Made by a program: the position numbers and the translations under genes. A stretch of DNA of 64,000 nt, from the NCBI RefSeq assembly GCF_988243305.1, contig NZ_OZ547136.1. The stretch is one strand, 5' to 3'. Positions 8,454 through 63,361 of the stretch are shown one piece after another; the stretch's first letter is position 1, and every line of letters starts with the position of its first letter. The notes below the pieces were generated by a model. It was not told the origin of the DNA. It worked only from the letters and a program-made list of their open reading frames with translations, and made no database searches.

Positions 8454-9317
<864 letters not shown>

Positions 9318-52154: not shown

Positions 52155-53285
52155 TCAAATGACCAGTTTTTTCCATTCCTTACCGCGTGCGTCGTTGTAA
52201 ATATCGGTCATTTTTTGATTCGAATGGCCTAGCAAAATTTTGGTATCAACCCCCTGCTCTCTGAACAATCGCTCTGATAAAGATCTCTGCTCATGGAAAG
52301 AGGGAGGGGTGCCATTAGCACGCCAGTTGTAATCCACAGAATCCCGGGCTTTTTTAAATGCAACGGTTAATGTTGCTGGCTTAACCATCCCGCCGCGCTT
52401 AGCTGTCCCTTTCGCGTGATGGTGGTGCAATAGCCACGGACTAAGAACGCAATCGCGGCAGGATGACACCACATCATCCAGGGTGAGATTTAATTTATCG
52501 CAACGCAGAGCCAGAGGGATGGCAATCCGGGTTCCTGTTTTTTGCTGTTCGACATGAAGATAACCATCCCGGATATCCGAAAATTGCATTTTGCAAATAT
52601 CTGAAAGGCGCTGGCCTGTCATCAGTGCCAGCAGCATACCGCGCTGTAAAAAGTAACCATCCTTTTCCGCTGCGTTATAAATCATCATCCACTCATCAAA
52701 AGTCAGTCGCTGTCTTGATATCCGCACCTGCGGTTTTTTTGCCGATTCTGCAGGGTTAAAGCCTGGCGGGACATCGCCCGTTTGCTGAGCTTCCCGGAAA
52801 ACATCGATCAGTACTTTCCTGAAAATTTGTCCCATTCTGTTATGTCCTCTGGCCTTGTACTCTTCCAGTACTGATACCACATCTTTTACGGTTATGGCAT
52901 CTAACGGTCTGGTGCCAAAACGTTCATCAAATACCCTGAGAGGGGCCGCTTTCTGTTTCAGCGTGTTGAGTTTGATCTCGCCGTTTTCATATCTTTCCTG
53001 TTGAATTTTTCTGTAATTATTCAGAAAAATGGTAACGGTTGATGAACCGCCGGTATCACTAATAATTTTCTCCTGCAGACTGAGCATTTGTTCCATTTGC
53101 TGCCGGGCAAGACGGCTGTTCGCTTCTGCTGCAATAGTTTCTGCCAGTTTCTGGTCAATACTGCCGAGACCGTGATTTTTGCCTGTTATGGGATGCCTGT
53201 AACGCCAGTAAACTTTGTTATTTCTTTTGTCAAAATACGGAGATAATCCCGGAACATCGGTTTTATATTTTCGCGGGCGCGCCAT
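52155..53285 (-). CDS. int: phage tyrosine integrase (lambda Int family)
   Basis: 376-aa ORF; C-terminal catalytic region with LGHSNQKMTDIYNDARG (Tyr nucleophile context); 3' end overlaps the hairpin adjacent to ompW. Confidence 0.9.
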   Translation of the reverse strand: MARPRKYKTDVPGLSPYFDKRNNKVYWRYRHPITGKNHGLGSIDQKLAETIAAEANSRLARQQMEQMLSLQEKIISDTGGSSTVTIFLNNYRKIQQERYENGEIKLNTLKQKAAPLRVFDERFGTRPLDAITVKDVVSVLEEYKARGHNRMGQIFRKVLIDVFREAQQTGDVPPGFNPAESAKKPQVRISRQRLTFDEWMMIYNAAEKDGYFLQRGMLLALMTGQRLSDICKMQFSDIRDGYLHVEQQKTGTRIAIPLALRCDKLNLTLDDVVSSCRDCVLSPWLLHHHHAKGTAKRGGMVKPATLTVAFKKARDSVDYNWRANGTPPSFHEQRSLSERLFREQGVDTKILLGHSNQKMTDIYNDARGKEWKKLVI

Positions 53286-53575: not shown

Positions 53576-56050
53576 TTAAAAATCAGCCTGATTCGGGATC
53601 AGTTTTTGCCAGATAGTTGAAACGTATTTTGCCTGGTAACGGGCATCATCCAGCGCATTGTGGCGCTCACCTTCGAATGGAATAGCCGCCCTGGCATCGA
53701 AGTCCATGGCTTTTCCCAGCTCAACGATTGTGCGTACATCGCGATCGTTGTAGTAACGCCACGGGCAGGGGATCCCCTGCCGTTCGTATGAACGGCGCAA
53801 AATCGTGTTGTCGAAGTTGGCTCCATTTCCCCAGACCTGAACAAAAAATTCGCCGGAGTTTTCGTCGATAAATTCCCGCAATTGCAGCAGTGCATCATCT
53901 AACGGGATTTCATCGGTCAGAATGGCAGATTGCGCCTCCCGTGATTGCTTAAGCCACCATTTAATGGTGCCACGATCAATGACTCCGCCAGCAGTATCCA
54001 TATCGATGGTCTTACTAAATTCCGGCCCCATATCTCCGGTTTGCGGATCGAAAAATATTGCACCTATTGAGATAAGCGGGGCATCGGGATTTTTTCCCAT
54101 GGTTTCAAGGTCGATCATCATGTGGTGCCACATTCTGCTGGTGGATGTGATTTCTTGATGACCGTTCACCTTAATTGAGTGATCTGCCGTCTCGCCAGTT
54201 TCATTATCGCTATCGTGATGCTGATTGCCGCCAGTGTTCTCCTTGTGTGGATGTTCAGCGCCTTCCATTTCCTCTGGATCATCTTCCTGAACTTCAGGCT
54301 GATACTCTTCATCGAATGTTTCCTGGTATGTTGCGTCGCCCATTACCGCGCCACAATCAGGGCAGTTGCCGCCGCCGGTCTGACCGCAGGCGGTGCAGAC
54401 TTTTTCCACTTCCTGTTGCGCCACTGATTCAGGCTGTTTCGTTTCTGGCTCGTTTTGTAACGCATTTGGGCTGTTTTGTTCCGCTTTCTGGTCGTTCTGT
54501 TCCGTTTCTTGCTGGTTCTGGTTCACAGAATCGCGGGTCTGGTTCCCCTTAACCCATTTCGGATCATTCGGGTCGCTAATCCCTTCAACAAATTCACCAC
54601 GTGATACTGCAAGCAGTTCATCGGCGTCAGGCTGGCTGATATTGGCTGCCTGCATAATTTTGTTTACTTCGTCAGCGGTAACTTTTACTGGCTCTGGTTG
54701 TGCGGTCGTGTCAGATGCACCAGTATTTTGTTGTGAACCTGAGTATGTACCGTTTTTACGTGCGAAGTATTCCTCTTTTGTGATTTCCGTAGCTCCCAGG
54801 GCCAGTGCTTTTTCCAGACCAGAAAGTTTGTTTGCGCGACCGTATTTTTCGCCGTCCTTATCGGTGAAAAGGAAGTAGAACGGTCCCTCACGCTCTACAG
54901 ATGGTTCGTCTTCCACTTCGCATTCGGTTTTTTCGTTGTCCGGCATTGCCGTTTCCACTGCATCAGTTTCTGGTACTGGTGACGGGAGAGTACCAGCTGT
55001 GCCCTGATTTGTTCCTTCGTCATCTTCAAACACGCCCTTGGTAGTCAGGTATTCAGTGATGTATTTGTTCAGTGCTACGGGATCTTTGTGAATGTCGATC
55101 GGACGCTCACGGACAAGGCCAAAAATAGTCTGACGGTCGTAGCGAACGGCATCGGGTTGTTTGCGCATTGATGCGGAAATGCGCTTCCAGTCTTCGCGAT
55201 CTTTGTCGATAACTTCATTTTTTGCCCAGCGATGGATGCTGCCGTCAATGTTTCCGGTATCAATATCGCCAGGCCAGAGAGCGTAGGCCAGTTCTTCATC
55301 CAGCGTTTTCCATGTCTGCTTGTATTCGCGACAAATGGCGGCAGTGACTGGGTTGATTTTTCCTGCTGAGTTTTCAGTGTTCTGTTGATTGACTCTGGCG
55401 CGGGCGAGATCAACAACAGACGTGTATTTTCCGGTTTCCTTGCGTTCACCTTCGCGACGTTTTTTCCAGATGCGCATCTCTGCCTGAATTTCGGGCCATT
55501 TGGCACCAGGCTTACATTTATGCTTAACCCACCCGATGGCATGCAGCTTAAGCTCCGGATACATGGCGTTAACTTCTGGCATTTTCATCAACGCTTCAAC
55601 GATATGTCCGTCGAATGTTGCCATGTCTTCCTGCAACAATTCCTGTGCGCTAATAACCATATCAACGGTGATGTTTTCACATGTGTCGAACTTAACCATG
55701 ACAGCGTTCTGTACTTCAGGGGCCAGCTTGTCAAAAGTGACGTTCATCGGATCGGATTCAGTCTCAACCGGGACAAAGGAAGCAGACTCCTCATCCCAGC
55801 GGTTTTCCTGCATATATTCAGCATCCCAGGAATCGAGGGCAGGGCGGGGTATACCGGGTTTATCCTCGCAGACAAGAAATTTATAAGCGCAGTCCTGAGC
55901 AGCCGGATAATGCTCCAGGAATTGCCAGTGAAATTTTGCGCGGGCGCGACGTTCATCACCGGCTTCAATGGCAGTGGCTACAGCGACGGCACCTTCTTCC
56001 TTTATTGCCTGTTCGTCCGGAATGGCGGCGCAAATAAAGACTTTACTCAT
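53576..56050 (-). CDS. large prophage exonuclease: RecE/exonuclease VIII-like positional homolog with C-terminal DnaQ-like (DEDDh) 3'-5' exonuclease motifs and an internal CxxC-x8-CxxC zinc ribbon
   Basis: 824-aa ORF; C-terminal motifs MIDLETMG (Exo I), WGNGANFD (Exo II), HNALDDARYQA (Exo III); Cys pair CTACGQTGGGNCPDCG; acidic low-complexity linker; positioned between dicB and xis like lambdoid exo genes. Confidence 0.7.
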   Translation of the reverse strand: MSKVFICAAIPDEQAIKEEGAVAVATAIEAGDERRARAKFHWQFLEHYPAAQDCAYKFLVCEDKPGIPRPALDSWDAEYMQENRWDEESASFVPVETESDPMNVTFDKLAPEVQNAVMVKFDTCENITVDMVISAQELLQEDMATFDGHIVEALMKMPEVNAMYPELKLHAIGWVKHKCKPGAKWPEIQAEMRIWKKRREGERKETGKYTSVVDLARARVNQQNTENSAGKINPVTAAICREYKQTWKTLDEELAYALWPGDIDTGNIDGSIHRWAKNEVIDKDREDWKRISASMRKQPDAVRYDRQTIFGLVRERPIDIHKDPVALNKYITEYLTTKGVFEDDEGTNQGTAGTLPSPVPETDAVETAMPDNEKTECEVEDEPSVEREGPFYFLFTDKDGEKYGRANKLSGLEKALALGATEITKEEYFARKNGTYSGSQQNTGASDTTAQPEPVKVTADEVNKIMQAANISQPDADELLAVSRGEFVEGISDPNDPKWVKGNQTRDSVNQNQQETEQNDQKAEQNSPNALQNEPETKQPESVAQQEVEKVCTACGQTGGGNCPDCGAVMGDATYQETFDEEYQPEVQEDDPEEMEGAEHPHKENTGGNQHHDSDNETGETADHSIKVNGHQEITSTSRMWHHMMIDLETMGKNPDAPLISIGAIFFDPQTGDMGPEFSKTIDMDTAGGVIDRGTIKWWLKQSREAQSAILTDEIPLDDALLQLREFIDENSGEFFVQVWGNGANFDNTILRRSYERQGIPCPWRYYNDRDVRTIVELGKAMDFDARAAIPFEGERHNALDDARYQAKYVSTIWQKLIPNQADF

Positions 56051-57935: not shown

Positions 57936-58610
57936 TCAGTCTAAGTATTGATGTATTTGTGAAACTTTACCTTTAATGGTGTAACCACCATTAAGTTCGA
58001 TGGGTTTGTAAAGCGGATTCAGTGACAACAGATAGATGTTTGGTCCGTCAATCGCAACTTTTTTTAGTGTTACGTTTGGCGTTCCTTCCAATTGGATTAA
58101 GATTATTTTTCCCACCAGTTCTCTAATGTTACTTGAGCATGGTGTGATCAGCACGGTAGATCCGTCGGGGATGGTTGGGAGGCCGTTAGAGTTTGTCATC
58201 GCATCTCCCTCAACATGCAATAAAAAAGAGTTTTCAGCGGTTTTTGTCATGACATCAACCCAATTCTTAATACCAGGAATCTCGGTTACTGGACAACTCA
58301 TATCCCAATAACCAGCCTGTTCCCACGTTAAAACGGGCAACCGGGCGATGTTGTCACTAATGTAAGGGTACTGATTCAGACGCAGATCATCGGCTTTATC
58401 GTGACCGTCCTTTCCATAAAGAATCCATTCAGGAGATTTGGAAAGCAATTTTGACAGTAGATACAAATTCTCACCGTCAGGTTTTGAAGAGCCATTTTCC
58501 CATTTTGTTACGGATACACGAGATATGCCGATTGCTTTCGCAACCTGCTGTTGGGTTAATCCAACGTCTTTTCGACGATTCCGAATACGTTCGCTGATAG
58601 TGTTTTTCAT
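57936..58610 (-). CDS. prophage CI-like repressor (XRE HTH N-terminal domain plus S24/LexA-like autopeptidase C-terminal domain)
   Basis: Track ORF 57936-58709; start placed at ATG 58610 (MKNTISERIRNRRKDVGLTQQQVAKAIGISRVSVTKWENG...) by close resemblance to the P22 C2 N-terminus; C-terminal Ser/Lys dyad context (GDAM...KK). Confidence 0.85.
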   Translation of the reverse strand: MKNTISERIRNRRKDVGLTQQQVAKAIGISRVSVTKWENGSSKPDGENLYLLSKLLSKSPEWILYGKDGHDKADDLRLNQYPYISDNIARLPVLTWEQAGYWDMSCPVTEIPGIKNWVDVMTKTAENSFLLHVEGDAMTNSNGLPTIPDGSTVLITPCSSNIRELVGKIILIQLEGTPNVTLKKVAIDGPNIYLLSLNPLYKPIELNGGYTIKGKVSQIHQYLD

Positions 58611-58624
58611 GTAACCAATGTTAC
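58611..58624. promoter_or_regulatory. candidate right operator site (PRM-proximal)
   Basis: Palindrome GTAACCAATGTTAC immediately upstream of the repressor start. Confidence 0.55.
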
Positions 58625-58658
58625 TACCAAGTGATGTTGCTATGGTTGACATTGTTAT

Positions 58659-58672
58659 GTAACTATTGTTAC
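58659..58672. promoter_or_regulatory. candidate right operator site (PR-proximal)
   Basis: Palindrome GTAACTATTGTTAC adjacent to a TTGACA hexamer (58646-58651) upstream of the cro-like gene. Confidence 0.55.
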
Positions 58673-58701
58673 CCTTCTGCTCGAAATAACAGGAGAGTTT
58701 T

Positions 58702-58917
58702 ATGTTCAAAGATGATGTTCTGCGCTATTTCAAAAAAAAGCGACTAGTAGCTGAGGCTCTTGGAATTTCACATGTGGCTGTTGTGCGGTGGAAAGCAGTT
58801 ATTCCCAAACTTCGCGCAATGGAACTGGATGAAATTACTAACGGTGAATTGAAATACAACCCAGAACTTTACAAGAAGCAGGATAGCACCTCAAACGAAG
58901 GAAAGAATGATTCATGA
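58702..58917 (+). CDS. Cro-like/YdaS-family HTH DNA-binding protein
   Basis: 71-aa ORF with SD AGGAGAG; HTH segment LVAEALGISHVAVVRW; divergent from the repressor gene. Confidence 0.7.
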   Translation: MFKDDVLRYFKKKRLVAEALGISHVAVVRWKAVIPKLRAMELDEITNGELKYNPELYKKQDSTSNEGKNDS

Positions 58918-60364: not shown

Positions 60365-60640
60365 GTGGCAAAAGTTTTTACACAAGAAGAGCGGGAAAAA
60401 ATTAAAGGGCTGATCGTGGAATTCGTACGCCTTAACGGACGAGGCACGATTCGGCAGTTATCGGATGAAATTGGTGTCAGTCATACGTCTGTCGGTCGTT
60501 TATGCATGGAGCTGGCCGCCAGTGGTGATGTTTACAATTCCGGTTACGGAGTATTCCCGTCTGAGCAGGCGCGCAAGGACTGGCAAAACGCCCGCAAAAA
60601 AACTCTCAAGGGCAAAGCTGAAGAAACCATCTGTGGTTGA
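60365..60640 (+). CDS. hypothetical small protein with predicted winged-helix/HTH segment
   Basis: 91-aa ORF from GTG with SD CAGGAGGAC; HTH-like GTIRQLSDEIGVSHTSVGRLCMELAASG. Confidence 0.5.
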   Translation: MAKVFTQEEREKIKGLIVEFVRLNGRGTIRQLSDEIGVSHTSVGRLCMELAASGDVYNSGYGVFPSEQARKDWQNARKKTLKGKAEETICG

Positions 60641-60788
60641 TCCGGACCTTATCTGGCTATTACCTGACGGAGAAATACGTCGCTACGACAGGCGTCAGAA
60701 CATAATCTGTCGCGAGTGCCGGAAGAGCGAAGTTATGCAGCGCGTACTGGCGTTTTATCAGGGGAATTTTCAGGAGGTAGCGCAGTGA
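60633..60788 (+). CDS. hypothetical micro-protein (51 aa), translationally coupled
   Basis: GTG at 60633 overlaps the upstream stop (GTGGTTGA); its stop overlaps the next start (GTGA); part of track ORF 60465-60788. Confidence 0.35.
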   Translation: MVDPDLIWLLPDGEIRRYDRRQNIICRECRKSEVMQRVLAFYQGNFQEVAQ

Positions 60789-61273
60789 GTGCACCGGCAA
60801 CCATTCTTGATATGTGCTGTGGCAGCCGTATGTTCTGGTTCGATAAGAATGACGACCGGGCGATATTTAGCGATATCAGAAAAGAAGAGCACACATTGTG
60901 TGATGGACGACGCCTGATTATCAGTCCTGACCTGATAGCAGATTTTCGAGCATTACCATTTGCAGACGCATCGTTTCCGGTTGTTGTATTCGACCCTCCG
61001 CATCTTGAGTGTGTTGGTGATAAAGCCTGGATGGGAAAGAAATATGGACGGTTGAATAAAGATACCTGGCGTGATGATTTGCGGCAGGGATTTAAAGAAG
61101 CTTTTCGTGTGTTGTGGCCACATGGCGTTCTGATTTTTAAATGGAATGAAACGCAAATATCTGTCCGCCAGATATTGGCACTAACCGACGCGAAACCAAT
61201 CATCAGCCAGCGCACCGGTAAGAACGATAAAACACATTGGATTATTTTTGTGAAGGAGGCGACCAGTGGGTAA
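60785..61273 (+). CDS. putative SAM-dependent (DNA) methyltransferase, orphan
   Basis: Track ORF 60716-61273; GTG at 60785 preceded by SD CAGGAGG; motif I-like ILDMCCGSRMF and motif IV-like FDPPHL; no adjacent restriction endonuclease gene. Confidence 0.5.
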   Translation: MSAPATILDMCCGSRMFWFDKNDDRAIFSDIRKEEHTLCDGRRLIISPDLIADFRALPFADASFPVVVFDPPHLECVGDKAWMGKKYGRLNKDTWRDDLRQGFKEAFRVLWPHGVLIFKWNETQISVRQILALTDAKPIISQRTGKNDKTHWIIFVKEATSG

Positions 61274-61520
61274 ATCAAAATGCCAGGTTTATGGCAACAA
61301 GATAGAACCGTGTACGACCCTGGCAAAATCCCTTGAGCATGATGCTGAATACACGATGCGAAAAGGTCTGCTGATATACAAAATCTGGAATGAGAGTTTA
61401 ACTCGCGGTCCTGATTTTGTGATGTTGCGTTCCGGTGAATTTTCTAAATTACCAGTTCGGGTTTCATTTTGTCCGTTCTGTGGTGAAAGTCTGAAAACGT
61501 GGGAGAACAGAAATGAATGA
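61266..61520 (+). CDS. hypothetical zinc-ribbon protein
   Basis: 84-aa ORF with Cys pairs C6/C16 and CPFC near the C-terminus; overlaps neighbours by 8 nt on each side. Confidence 0.45.
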   Translation: MGKSKCQVYGNKIEPCTTLAKSLEHDAEYTMRKGLLIYKIWNESLTRGPDFVMLRSGEFSKLPVRVSFCPFCGESLKTWENRNE

Positions 61521-61824
61521 AATTAAAGAAATACCAGTAGTACGTGATGAATATGGCTACTGGACGCATCCTGAATATGAAAAATTCTGTGACGGTCGGG
61601 AATATATTTCAACGGAAGAGTTTAACGCCTGGATGGAGGAAAATAATCTTCAATACGTCCTCTGCTTCAGAGATGAAGGATGTGCTGACCTTGATGCGTG
61701 TGATGCTGATATTTCTGCATGGGAACCGGAACGACCAGAGGGCAATGGATGGTTTATTGGTTCAATACATGACACCGAAGATGGCCCGGTTTGTGTATGG
61801 CTGAGAAATAAGGCCGAAGCATAA
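61513..61824 (+). CDS. hypothetical acidic phage protein
   Basis: 103-aa ORF, D/E-rich (DEGCADLDACDADISAWEPERPEG). Confidence 0.45.
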   Translation: MNEIKEIPVVRDEYGYWTHPEYEKFCDGREYISTEEFNAWMEENNLQYVLCFRDEGCADLDACDADISAWEPERPEGNGWFIGSIHDTEDGPVCVWLRNKAEA

Positions 61825-61952
61825 AGGCTATAAACCGACTAACAACTAAATACTGAAGATTTAAATCAGAAACGATTTTTATTAAATCCTTAACCGGAGG
61901 GATTCCTGCACCCTCAGAACATCAGGAGGCCGTCCGAAAGGGCGGTAGTGAA

Positions 61953-62135
61953 ATGCGAAAATTCAAAATAATTATTGAAACGGGAATAGCCGGTGGAGAT
62001 TTCGAGGATGAATTCGAAGTGGATGATGATGCAACACCAGATGAAATACAGGATGAAGCTAAAGATATTTTCTTTAACTACTGCAATTACTCATACCACG
62101 AAATAAAAGACGAAGAGGAAGAACAAAATGGCTGA
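61953..62135 (+). CDS. hypothetical very acidic small protein (60 aa)
   Basis: About one third of residues are D/E (FEDEFEVDDDATPDEIQDEAKD...KDEEEEQNG). Confidence 0.45.
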   Translation: MRKFKIIIETGIAGGDFEDEFEVDDDATPDEIQDEAKDIFFNYCNYSYHEIKDEEEEQNG

Positions 62136-62304
62136 TTTTGGTTCAACTAAATATAACGCCAGTTTTGAAGAATGGCATGAACTGTTAATGGATTATGCAG
62201 AGTTACGCGGTGGAAGTGCCGCTGATGCTGAAGCATGGCGTGATGATTATGAAGCAGGGAAAACACCGGTCGAAGCATATTGTGATGAGTGGGGCGATGA
62301 ATGA
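62128..62304 (+). CDS. hypothetical acidic small protein (58 aa)
   Basis: ATG 62128 overlaps upstream stop (ATGGCTGA); MADFGSTKYNASFEEWHELLMDYAELRGGSAADAEAWRDDYEAGKTPVEAYCDEWGDE; below track size cutoff. Confidence 0.4.
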   Translation: MADFGSTKYNASFEEWHELLMDYAELRGGSAADAEAWRDDYEAGKTPVEAYCDEWGDE

Positions 62305-62660
62305 GCGAGATTAATTATCAGGAAGGGCATGAAAAGGTAGGGCAGGCAAAACCAGTGGCATGGCGATATCGCTACGTGAAAAAAGGCGTTACAGACTTTC
62401 AGGGGAAGCAGTGGGTTGGTGACTGGAAATATGTCCCGACAAAAGAGGATTGTAACGACAGACCAAACTATGAAATTCAGGCGTTATTCACGGCCCCGCC
62501 AGCTTCGGTGACATCAGAAGGACTGGTTAAAGCTGTGCGCTTTTATGAACAGGTACGGCGTGAGGATCCGCCAGTTGAAACCGGAGCATGGAAAGACGCT
62601 ATTGACTGGGTACTCAAGGAGGCCTGCCTGGTTGTAAACACGGGCATCAAAGGAGGCTGA
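62301..62660 (+). CDS. hypothetical phage protein
   Basis: 119-aa ORF, start overlaps upstream stop (ATGA). Confidence 0.45.
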   Translation: MSEINYQEGHEKVGQAKPVAWRYRYVKKGVTDFQGKQWVGDWKYVPTKEDCNDRPNYEIQALFTAPPASVTSEGLVKAVRFYEQVRREDPPVETGAWKDAIDWVLKEACLVVNTGIKGG

Positions 62661-62876
62661 ATGGGTATTGCCGCAAGTTATACCATGCATCTCTATTGTG
62701 ATTGCCGCCAGTGTACGGATGGCAAATATCAGTCGCCAGATTTTGGTGAGTATATCGGTACGTCATGGGCTGGCTGTGCAAAAGAGGCACGTAAAGATGG
62801 GTGGCGAATAAGTGCCGACAAAACGCGTGCTTTTGCGCCAAGGCATAAAATTTTGAGGAGCAACAAAGGAGAGTGA
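62661..62876 (+). CDS. hypothetical Cys-rich small protein
   Basis: 71-aa ORF with CDCRQC motif, immediately after the previous stop. Confidence 0.4.
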   Translation: MGIAASYTMHLYCDCRQCTDGKYQSPDFGEYIGTSWAGCAKEARKDGWRISADKTRAFAPRHKILRSNKGE

Positions 62877-62877
62877 T

Positions 62878-63096
62878 GTGCCTACATTATTCAGAAAAGA
62901 ATATCCGCGAAAAAGTAGAGCGACAGAATTTTTGTTTCTCATTCTGTTTATCGTGTTGATGATACCGATATCCCCGTTAATTCTGGTATGGGGAATCGGA
63001 AAAATAATTGAGCCAGTTATTGAATTGTATAACGACGTGGTATGGGCTCCGTTCAACACACTGCACAATAAAATTAATCCGTATAAGGAAAACTGA
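62878..63096 (+). CDS. hypothetical small membrane protein
   Basis: 72-aa ORF with one strongly hydrophobic segment (FLFLILFIVLMIPISPLILVWGIG). Confidence 0.4.
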   Translation: MPTLFRKEYPRKSRATEFLFLILFIVLMIPISPLILVWGIGKIIEPVIELYNDVVWAPFNTLHNKINPYKEN

Positions 63097-63097
63097 T

Positions 63098-63361
63098 ATG
63101 GCAACTTTGACAAAAAAAGAACAGGCATGGTTGAACGAATTACAGGACGTTCTTGATCGCTGTCCATCACCGAAAAAAATTGGTTTTTACACCATTGGCG
63201 ATAAAAGCATTTACCTGTATGACCTGCGCCGCATGGATGAAATCATGGAGGCTCTTGATAATCGTTCGTCAATGGATTGGTGTGTTGCTGTCCATGATAT
63301 GAATGCAGGGTTTGATGAAAAGATTTTGTTCCCCTCATCAGTTGAAAGCACTGCGGGTTAA
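63098..63361 (+). CDS. hypothetical phage protein
   Basis: 87-aa ORF from ATG 63098 (MATLTKKEQAWLNELQDV...) within track ORF 63008-63361. Confidence 0.4.
   Translation: MATLTKKEQAWLNELQDVLDRCPSPKKIGFYTIGDKSIYLYDLRRMDEIMEALDNRSSMDWCVAVHDMNAGFDEKILFPSSVESTAG

What the first reader, a model, noticed from the sequence alone, without database searches (positions are those of the whole stretch)
61513..62304. Run of very acidic small proteins, candidate DNA mimics or anti-defence factors
Three adjacent small ORFs are strongly D/E-rich: 103 aa (61513-61824), 60 aa with about one third acidic residues (61953-62135), and 58 aa (62128-62304), the latter two translationally coupled. Highly acidic small phage proteins are the typical signature of DNA-mimic anti-restriction proteins (Ocr and ArdA types), and they sit right after the orphan methyltransferase.
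Basis: inference. Interest (0 to 1): 0.5.

Follow-up and report, generated by a model that had tools for sequence, protein, structure and literature searches.

The report
Three acidic lambdoid prophage accessory proteins
Three adjacent, very acidic small genes in an E. coli lambdoid prophage are real, widely conserved phage accessory genes of unknown function; a relative of one is published as the trigger of a bacterial suicide defence, so an anti-defence role is plausible, but nothing here shows they imitate DNA.

Summary
ORFs at 61513-61824 (A, 103 aa), 61953-62135 (B, 60 aa) and 62128-62304 (C, 58 aa) exist as described. They are the three most negatively charged of 76 non-overlapping ORFs in the window.

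They lie in the early rightward operon of a Rac/Qin-type lambdoid prophage. They are three unrelated gene families that are shuffled independently:
- A belongs to phrog_1372. It is 44% identical to mEp213 orf184, which Silas et al. showed triggers cell death through the P4-satellite gop-beta-cII abortive-infection system.
- B is a DUF7167 (PF23768) protein. The family occurs in phages of both Proteobacteria and Enterococcus and is almost always acidic.
- C belongs to phrog_519. The family occurs in several phage families and on 561 plasmids, mostly conjugative.

The most likely role is early-expressed small proteins that bind host or rival-element proteins, probably in counter-defence. DNA mimicry is untested and unsupported beyond size and charge.

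Verdict: ordinary members of known families of unknown function, of moderate interest, with clear experiments available.

The parts
61266..61520 (+). 84-aa Cys-containing ORF (C6, C16, CPFCG at residues 69-73). It overlaps the methyltransferase stop and the ORF A start by 8 nt each and is a frequent partner of A.
   Evidence: ORF and sequence. phrog_4030, unknown function, 5.7e-37. No Pfam match, Lar_restr_allev included. Found directly upstream of A in 54 of 80 IMG/VR loci.
61513..61824 (+). ORF A, 103 aa, net charge -17. Member of the orf184/phrog_1372 family, whose mEp213 member triggers the gop-beta-cII abortive-infection system.
61825..61952 (+). 128-nt intergenic spacer that is a mosaic junction between the [84-aa ORF + A] block and the [B-C-D-E-F] block.
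   Evidence: Megablast hits end or begin inside it: H8 covers window 61253-61945, H4 covers 61881-63121, H9 covers 61922-63122. A is followed by B-C in only 18 of 77 related loci.
61925..61955 (+). Candidate split ribosome-binding site for B: GGAG (61925-61928), then a 7-bp G+C-rich hairpin with a GAAA loop (61929-61946), then 6 nt, then AUG (61953).
   Evidence: Local fold -14.2 kcal/mol, z = -2.45. The same hairpin is present in L001 and L002; L001 has a U-to-C change that turns a G.U pair into G-C. The function is inferred, not tested.
61953..62135 (+). ORF B, 60 aa, net charge -15. DUF7167 (PF23768, phrog_1997) protein.
   Evidence: Pfam DUF7167 1.6e-14 over residues 2-53. phrog_1997 2.7e-30. 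PGAP name 'DUF7167 family protein'. 111 representatives at 50% clustering. Model: strands 2-8 and 17-23, helix 29-43, disordered acidic tail.
62128..62304 (+). ORF C, 58 aa, net charge -12. phrog_519 family, translationally coupled to B and to the next ORF.
   Evidence: phrog_519 8.5e-23. tblastn matches in 219 phage records and 561 plasmids. Model: three helices at C residues 13-26, 34-42 and 47-55, with pLDDT above 90.
62301..63361 (+). Four further tightly packed small ORFs that travel with B-C in part of the relatives: D 62301-62660, E 62661-62876, F 62878-63096, G 63098-63361. They are not especially acidic.
   Evidence: ORFs and charges. phrog_660, phrog_926, phrog_1832 ('released from the phage upon host infection', named DUF4014 by PGAP) and phrog_1714. 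Co-occurrence patterns.

Best explanation
These are three genuine, unrelated accessory genes in the early rightward (pR) operon of a Rac/Qin-type lambdoid prophage. They lie between the replication genes and the nin/Q region. Each encodes one small, compact, strongly acidic domain with no enzymatic or DNA-binding signature.

The most likely mode of action is this. Each is made early after induction or infection. Each acts stoichiometrically, by binding and blocking or decoying a host or rival-element protein. A counter-defence or host-takeover function is the most probable purpose.

For ORF A the family already has a published phenotype. Its mEp213 homologue, orf184, is the protein that sets off the Gop-beta-CII abortive-infection module of P4-like satellites. 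A is therefore predicted to be an effector that some hosts guard against.

**Shown here:** gene reality, conservation, acidity, family membership, early-operon position, modular shuffling.
**Taken from a paper:** the trigger phenotype of a 44%-identical homologue.
**Inferred:** that A, B and C act by protein binding, and that the targets are defence-related. Whether any of them imitates DNA is left open.
For: **Context.** The prophage has an integrase, a RecE-like exonuclease, a repressor, a cII-like gene and an O-like gene, all confirmed by PHROGs. A, B and C follow on the same strand as cro/cII/O with overlapping or abutting stops and starts.

**Families.** phrog_1372, DUF7167/phrog_1997 and phrog_519. 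None matches NCBIfam or PADLOC, and apart from B's DUF7167 hit none matches any Pfam family.

**A.** It is 44% identical to orf184. orf184 triggers gop-beta-cII cell death and shares an accessory region with ral. In mEp213 it sits just after N in the pL operon. Foldseek finds the A domain inside longer proteins that UniProt names 'Restriction alleviation protein, Lar family'. A Lar-type Zn-ribbon gene lies directly upstream of the A-like gene in 3 of 80 Pseudomonas-type loci. DNA methyltransferase genes lie nearby in PY54, phiAH14a and this window.

**B.** Relatives sit in early or recombination modules of very different phages: N-Ral-Y8K6-DUF7167-cIII, GamL-RecT...DUF7167, and next to the exonuclease and annealing protein in Klebsiella Guernseyvirinae. 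Acidity is kept across 100+ representatives while few positions are invariant. This suggests selection for overall charge.

**C.** It occurs in temperate and virulent phages and on 516 conjugative plasmids. That is the distribution expected of a general tool of mobile elements.

**Independence.** A is followed by B-C in only 18 of 77 loci. C occurs without B in Enterobacter prophages.
Against: - No target is known for any of the three.
- The primary function of orf184 is unknown; the authors marked it 'checked but nothing meaningful found'. It is reported as a cell-death trigger, not as a counter-defence hit.
- B and C relatives were not in that 200-gene screen. No paper mentions DUF7167.
- Placement in accessory regions is weak evidence, because most genes there have unknown function.
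- In Ackermannviridae, C sits just after the major capsid gene rather than in an obvious early region. One homologue is not acidic.
- The Lar-fusion lead rests on UniProt names in the Foldseek output. I could not confirm it from sequences.
Confidence: 0.5

Rival explanations
1. One reading: one or more of A, B and C is a DNA mimic in the manner of Ocr, ArdA, lambda Gam or T7 gp5.9. Its carboxylates would imitate the DNA backbone, and it would plug the DNA-binding site of a restriction, BREX or RecBCD-type enzyme.
For: - Small size, pI about 4.05-4.14 and 24-33% D/E fit the general profile of DNA mimics. The Silas paper gives pI about 4 for Ocr/ArdA.
- Acidity is conserved family-wide for A and B.
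- B has a helix with one acidic face plus an acidic tail.
- A natural tandem-duplicated DUF7167 (P0271) hints at a two-fold arrangement.
- B lies near recombination and exonuclease genes in several phages.
Against: - No sequence match to Ocr, ArdA, Gam or any PDB chain.
- A is a globular alpha/beta domain, not an elongated helical rod.
- The A-family member orf184 is not reported among the triggers of Ronin/EcoR22I, which respond to Ocr and ArdA.
- One C homologue has net charge 0.
- Acidity alone is not specific.
Confidence: 0.15
2. They are not anti-defence genes. They modulate phage development or host physiology, like the small ORFs of the lambda/Stx-phage exo-xis region (orf60a, orf61, orf63, orf73, Ea8.5; named from my own knowledge). 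They would bind host replication, transcription or cell-cycle proteins to tune induction, lysogenisation or burst.
For: - In Stx2a phage ArgO145 the B-C pair sits in the exo-xis/ea region, between the recombination genes and int.
- C relatives sit beside xis-int or in the nin region, next to Ead/Ea22-like genes.
- The A domain is one of many swappable C-terminal modules of mosaic proteins in Pseudomonas-type prophages.
- No defence-related domain was detected.
Against: - B and C also occur in strictly virulent phages (Herelleviridae, Ackermannviridae, Autographiviridae) and C on plasmids. Tuning lysogeny is irrelevant for those elements.
- The only experimental phenotype in any of the three families is an immune trigger.
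Confidence: 0.25
3. They are lysogenic-conversion or superinfection-exclusion genes. They would be expressed from the prophage to protect the lysogen against other phages.
For: - The neighbouring gene 60365-60640 matches a 'Ren-like exclusion protein' PHROG.
- Prophage accessory regions often carry defence genes (general knowledge).
Against: - No own promoter stands out. Promoter-like sites number 7 against 5.6 expected, with none in the spacer before B.
- The genes are embedded in the repressed pR operon.
- There is no PADLOC match.
- They are soluble acidic proteins without membrane or nuclease features.
- B and C are present in virulent phages.
Confidence: 0.05

Closest known systems
orf184 of phage mEp213 (AFM76385.1; Silas et al., bioRxiv 10.1101/2023.04.06.535777)
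   Same: Same protein family as ORF A: 44% identity over the full length at 6e-30, same PHROG, same length class, same conserved motifs (RDExGYWTHPEY and GWFxGSIHDTEDGPxCVW). Both are early lambdoid accessory genes.
   Different: orf184 lies in the pL operation just after N. ORF A lies in the pR operon after the replication genes. At 44% identity, trigger specificity for gop-beta-cII may or may not be kept. The primary function is unknown for both.
DUF7167 (Pfam PF23768; phrog_1997)
   Same: ORF B matches the whole model at 1.6e-14. It shares the family consensus M-R-K-x-K-V-x-I-E-T...E-V-x-D-D-A-T-x-E-E-I...F-N-x-C-N-Y and the family's acidity.
   Different: Nothing distinguishes it from the family. 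The family itself has no known function and no literature.
Ocr (T7 gp0.3) and ArdA, DNA-mimic anti-restriction proteins
   Same: Small, pI about 4, very D/E-rich, encoded by mobile elements and expressed early.
T7 gp5.9 and lambda Gam, small acidic inhibitors of RecBCD (from my own knowledge)
   Same: gp5.9 shows that a protein of about 50 aa can act as a DNA mimic when dimeric. B and C are of that size and charge, and B relatives lie near recombination genes.
   Different: There is no sequence similarity to any solved chain. The B model is beta-beta-alpha and the C model is a three-helix bundle, not a coiled-coil dimer. RecBCD binding was not tested.
Small ORFs of the lambda/Stx-phage exo-xis and nin accessory regions (from my own knowledge)
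   Same: Same kind of genomic neighbourhood and the same mosaic, shuffled behaviour.
   Different: No homology to those with solved structures. B and C extend far beyond lambdoid phages.

Membership tests
orf184 / phrog_1372 family (ORF A) | Full-length sequence homology to mEp213 orf184 and to the PHROG profile | tested here: met
   BLASTP 44% identity, 6e-30; phrog_1372 8.5e-56.
orf184 / phrog_1372 family (ORF A) | Expression triggers gop-beta-cII-dependent cell death | not testable with these tools
   Shown only for the mEp213 protein in ECOR59 and in a reconstituted lab strain.
DUF7167, PF23768 (ORF B) | Match to the Pfam model over its full length | tested here: met
   i-Evalue 1.6e-14, model positions 1-60 of 60; PGAP uses the same name.
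phrog_519 (ORF C) | Match to the PHROG profile | tested here: met
   8.5e-23, matching profile positions 76-137 of 143.
Ocr-type DNA mimic | Sequence or profile similarity to Ocr | tested here: not met
   No Pfam hit of that kind; no PDB-sequence hit at E up to 10.
Ocr-type DNA mimic | Elongated all-helical dimer whose shape follows bent B-DNA | tested here: not met
Ocr-type DNA mimic | Surface carboxylates that superimpose on DNA phosphates | not testable with these tools
   Model coordinates are not exposed. Only the linear charge and conserved acidic columns could be computed.
Ocr-type DNA mimic | Inhibition of type I R-M or BREX | not testable with these tools
   This needs plaque assays or binding assays.
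ArdA-type DNA mimic | Sequence or profile similarity to ArdA, and its three-domain elongated fold | tested here: not met
Generic 'DNA mimic protein' profile (small, pI below 5, D/E-rich) | Size under about 25 kDa, pI 3-5, high D+E content | tested here: met
   103, 60 and 58 aa; pI 4.14, 4.05 and 4.05; 24-33% D/E. This criterion is necessary but far from specific.
Lar/Ral restriction-alleviation proteins | Lar_restr_allev Zn-ribbon domain in A, or in its coupled upstream 84-aa ORF | tested here: not met
   Neither has such a Pfam hit. There is only association: UniProt 'Lar family' names on longer proteins that contain the A domain, and Lar-type genes upstream in 3 of 80 loci.
SUKH / SMI1-KNR4 immunity proteins | Fold or profile similarity | tested here: inconclusive
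Known anti-phage defence proteins (PADLOC) | Match to any PADLOC model | tested here: not met
   No family at E up to 1 for A, B, C or their neighbours.

The most novel reading that the evidence does not exclude
DUF7167 (ORF B) is a polyanionic mini-domain used by phages from lambdoids and Klebsiella Guernseyvirinae to Enterococcus Herelleviridae. As a dimer it would imitate nucleic acid to block a conserved host DNA-end-processing or defence hub, such as RecBCD/AddAB-class or SbcCD-class nucleases. This would explain its invariant acidity and its recurrent place among early recombination and replication genes. ORF A would be a second, independent effector whose activity is what Gop-beta-CII guards.
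Probability: 0.12. Interest if true: 0.7.

Novelty: new member of a known kind. Interest (0 to 1): 0.35.

Why it matters
Small acidic accessory proteins make up much of the unexplained gene content of phages, and a few of them (Ocr, ArdA, gp5.9) turned out to be potent immune inhibitors. This locus offers three tractable candidates.
- A ties a very common E. coli prophage gene to a published trigger of an abortive-infection system. This could help identify what Gop-beta-CII actually senses.
- B belongs to a DUF that spans Gram-negative and Gram-positive phages and has no literature.
- C is shared between phages and conjugative plasmids, including IncI2 plasmids.

Finding their targets would add to the catalogue of counter-defence mechanisms. 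If no targets exist, the result warns against reading acidity as DNA mimicry.

Tried and rejected
1. **Database searches.** Pfam, NCBIfam, PADLOC and PDB-sequence searches on all three gave only DUF7167 for B.
3. **Fusion model of B and C.** With only two structure jobs available, I predicted B and C as one chain joined by a (GGGGS)x6 linker.
   - A block alignment made by MAFFT misaligned the C homologues onto B and was discarded.
   - I used arbitrary B-C concatenations instead.
   - The model gives the two folds but says nothing about whether B and C interact; pTM was 0.40.
4. **'DUF7167 is linked to exonucleases'.** This holds for Klebsiella Guernseyvirinae (phrog_69 exonuclease). The 'exonuclease' beside it in Enterococcus phage MDA2 is not supported by PHROGs. 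I dropped this as a general rule.
5. **'The 84-aa upstream ORF is a Lar-type protein'** (it has a CPFCG motif). There is no Pfam support.
6. **'The N-terminal domain fused to A-like domains in Pseudomonas-type prophages is a dATP/dGTP pyrophosphohydrolase'.** This was a guess from memory. There is no Pfam match, and it matches only PHROGs of unknown function.
7. **Confirming the Lar-A fusions named by UniProt.** I could not retrieve those sequences. Two IMG/VR scans gave only adjacency, in 3 of 80 loci.
8. **Literature.** There is nothing on DUF7167 or the RefSeq WP accessions. B and C motifs are absent from the Silas 200-gene list and from two other papers' supplements.
9. **Intergenic RNA.** The whole 154-nt stretch spanning the spacer (61822-61975) does not fold better than shuffles, z = -1.24. 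Only the local hairpin before B does.
10. **Surface electrostatics.** This was not possible, because no coordinates are available.

Full report
**What is there**

The window's last 12 kb is a lambdoid prophage. PHROG matches identify an integrase (52155-53285, minus strand), a RecE-like exonuclease (53576-56050, minus strand), a repressor (57936-58709, minus strand), a cII-like activator and an O-like replication initiator.

From cro onwards every gene is on the plus strand and tightly packed:
- a Ren-like/DUF977 gene (60365-60640);
- a DNA methyltransferase (60716-61273, phrog_954);
- an 84-aa Cys-containing ORF (61266-61520);
- ORF A (61513-61824);
- a 128-nt spacer;
- ORF B (61953-62135), ORF C (62128-62304) and four more small ORFs up to 63361.

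The nearest annotated relatives are Rac/Qin-like prophages of E. coli. There, PGAP calls A 'hypothetical protein', B 'DUF7167 family protein' and C 'hypothetical protein'.

**Check of the observation**

- A: 103 aa, 24% D/E, net charge -17.
- B: 60 aa, 33% D/E, net -15.
- C: 58 aa, 28% D/E, net -12. All three have pI of about 4.05-4.14.

B and C overlap by 8 nt, and C and D overlap by 4 nt. Among 76 non-overlapping ORFs of at least 50 aa in the window, these three have by far the lowest net charge per residue: -0.25, -0.21 and -0.165, against -0.089 for the next.

They are real genes.
- Each matches a PHROG family strongly.
- Each has distant homologues.
- The 1.5-kb region 61200-62700 matches, at least in part, 2500 of 5426 complete E. 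coli genomes.

One detail of the finding is inexact. The ORFs do not directly follow the methyltransferase, and that neighbourhood is not conserved: the methyltransferase was present in 2 of 80 related loci.

**Three unrelated modules**

*ORF A* has no Pfam family.
- It belongs to phrog_1372. Relatives occur in temperate phages and prophages of Enterobacterales, Pseudomonas, Burkholderia, Ralstonia and Vibrio.
- The domain also occurs inside longer proteins: phi1026b gp46, PY54 ORF48, and about 200-aa proteins of Pseudomonas-type prophages.

*ORF B* is DUF7167.
- An exhaustive search found 111 cluster representatives, nearly all 50-60 aa long.
- tblastn finds it in lambdoid phages, Klebsiella Guernseyvirinae, Enterococcus Herelleviridae, a Pseudomonas phage and large E. 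coli phages.

*ORF C* belongs to phrog_519.
- It occurs in Ackermannviridae, an Autographiviridae phage and lambdoid prophages.
- It also occurs on 561 plasmids, 516 of them conjugative. IncI2 plasmids carry it next to DUF1187 and a CaiF/GrlA-type regulator near repA.

The three do not travel together.
- In 80 IMG/VR loci with a near-identical A, the 84-aa ORF precedes A in 54. B-C follows A in only 18 of 77.
- C occurs without B in Enterobacter prophages.
- The spacer 61825-61952 is a recombination junction between blocks.
- In Stx2a phage ArgO145 the B-C pair lies in the leftward exo-xis/ea region instead.

**The one experimental link**

A peptide search of the supplements of Silas et al. 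(bioRxiv 10.1101/2023.04.06.535777) found an A-family protein among their 200 tested accessory genes. It is orf184 (UDP0184, AFM76385.1) of phage mEp213. It is 44% identical to A over the full length, at 6e-30.

The paper reports the following.
- Expressing orf184 activates the toxicity of the gop-beta-cII abortive-infection locus of a P4-like satellite in ECOR59. This was confirmed after cloning the locus into a lab strain.
- orf184 is 'widely distributed among coliphages'.
- It lies in the same accessory region as the anti-restriction gene ral.

In mEp213 the gene sits just downstream of N. The authors found nothing informative about its own function. In the same study the true DNA mimics Ocr and ArdA triggered different systems, EcoR22I and Ronin. 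orf184 is listed only for gop-beta-cII. B and C relatives were not in that gene set.

**Structure**

*Model of A.* The AlphaFold2 model, built from an 80-sequence alignment, has mean pLDDT 80 and pTM 0.71.
- It has two helices (20-26, 34-43) and three strands (46-52, 80-88, 91-99).
- An acidic loop at residues 53-79 has low confidence.
- Foldseek against AFDB50 returned its own family. It also returned longer proteins that UniProt names 'Restriction alleviation protein, Lar family', an Rv2179c-like exoribonuclease-domain protein and a 'Knr4/Smi1-like' protein.

*The Lar lead.* I could not retrieve those sequences. As a partial check, a Lar-type Zn-ribbon multidomain gene lies directly upstream of the A-like gene in 3 of 80 Pseudomonas-type loci. 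The lead is therefore real but weak.

*Model of B and C.* These were modelled as one artificial fusion.
- B is a beta-hairpin (2-8, 17-23) packed against a helix (29-43), followed by a disordered acidic tail.
- C is a confident three-helix bundle.

*Conservation.* In DUF7167, few positions are invariant but ten columns are at least 70% acidic. This fits selection for charge rather than for a catalytic site.

**Interpretation**

These features point to small protein-binding effectors made early in the lytic programme:
- an early-operon position;
- no enzymatic, membrane or DNA-binding signature;
- compact acidic domains;
- free shuffling between accessory regions;
- presence in virulent phages and plasmids;
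- an immune-trigger phenotype for one family.

Counter-defence is the most probable purpose (confidence about 0.5).

The specific DNA-mimic idea remains possible, at about 0.15. It rests only on size and charge. It is weakened by the lack of any sequence or fold relation to known mimics, and by orf184 not behaving like Ocr or ArdA.

A role in tuning phage development, like the lambda exo-xis ORFs, is the main alternative (about 0.25). A lysogen-protecting role is unlikely (about 0.05).

**Novelty and value**

All three proteins fall into existing families: phrog_1372/orf184, DUF7167 and phrog_519. This is a new instance of known kinds whose functions are still unknown. It is not surprising to a phage biologist.

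It does give three clean experimental candidates and one immediately testable prediction: that A triggers gop-beta-cII. I score interest at 0.35.

**Side observation**

B appears to have a split ribosome-binding site.
- GGAG lies 25 nt upstream of the AUG.
- A 7-bp hairpin with a GAAA loop (-14.2 kcal/mol, z = -2.45) would bring the GGAG to about 6 nt from the start codon.
- The hairpin is conserved in two related loci. One of them has a change that turns a G.U pair into G-C.

Noticed in passing
window 61925-61955 (+): Possible split ribosome-binding site for ORF B. GGAG is followed by a 7-bp G+C-rich hairpin with a GAAA tetraloop, then 6 nt, then AUG. Folding would bring the Shine-Dalgarno sequence to a normal distance from the start codon. 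Local fold is -14.2 kcal/mol, z = -2.45. The hairpin is conserved in L001 and L002, and L001 has a U-to-C change that strengthens a G.U pair.
   Followed up: partly
window 61825-61952: The spacer between A and B is a mosaic breakpoint. Megablast matches from different phages stop or start between 61881 and 61945, so [84-aa ORF + A] and [B-C-D-E-F] are separate exchangeable blocks.
   Followed up: partly
window 61266-61520 (+): 84-aa ORF with Cys6, Cys16 and a C-terminal CPFCG motif (phrog_4030). It is translationally coupled both to the methyltransferase and to A, and precedes A in 54 of 80 related loci. It looks like a zinc ribbon but has no Pfam match, Lar included.
   Followed up: partly
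L010 (IncI2 plasmid pHZ001, NZ_MN476093.1) 9001-9177; 561 plasmids in all: An 86%-identical copy of ORF C (WP_000753050.1) sits on about 60-kb IncI2 conjugative plasmids. It is coupled to a DUF1187 gene, downstream of a CaiF/GrlA-type regulator near repA. More distant copies are on large Klebsiella and Raoultella plasmids.
   Followed up: partly
protein P0271 (105 aa): A natural tandem duplication of the DUF7167 domain in one polypeptide. It hints that the domain may work as a dimer.
   Followed up: no
PP818812.1 'Actinobacillus phage vB_Apl-pPE4' 11347-12584: A phage recorded as infecting Actinobacillus pleuropneumoniae carries the B-to-F block at 93.6% nucleotide identity to this E. coli prophage. 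That is an unexpected host label for such a close match.
   Followed up: no
L147, L177, L182 (IMG/VR, Pseudomonas-type prophages), ORFs ending near 2321: The A-like domain forms the C-terminal half of proteins of about 200 aa. Their N-terminal domain of about 100 aa matches the C-termini of many large PHROGs of unknown function and has no Pfam match. In L138, L180 and L185 a multidomain protein with a Lar-type zinc ribbon lies directly upstream of the A-like gene.
   Followed up: partly
window 62878-63096 (+): ORF F (72 aa, DUF4014, phrog_1832 annotated 'released from the phage upon host infection') has a long hydrophobic stretch (FLFLILFIVLMIPISPLILVWGIG). It is probably a small membrane protein within the same block.
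   Followed up: no
window 53576-56050 (-): The RecE-like exonuclease of the prophage (824-aa ORF, phrog_2082) is itself markedly acidic, with net charge -65. It ranks fifth in the window by net negative charge per residue.
   Followed up: no
L005 (Enterococcus phage MDA2) 3471-4013: The gene annotated 'exonuclease' next to the DUF7167 homologue does not match any exonuclease PHROG. Its best named match is an 'RNA-binding protein' family, so the deposited annotation looks unreliable.
   Followed up: partly
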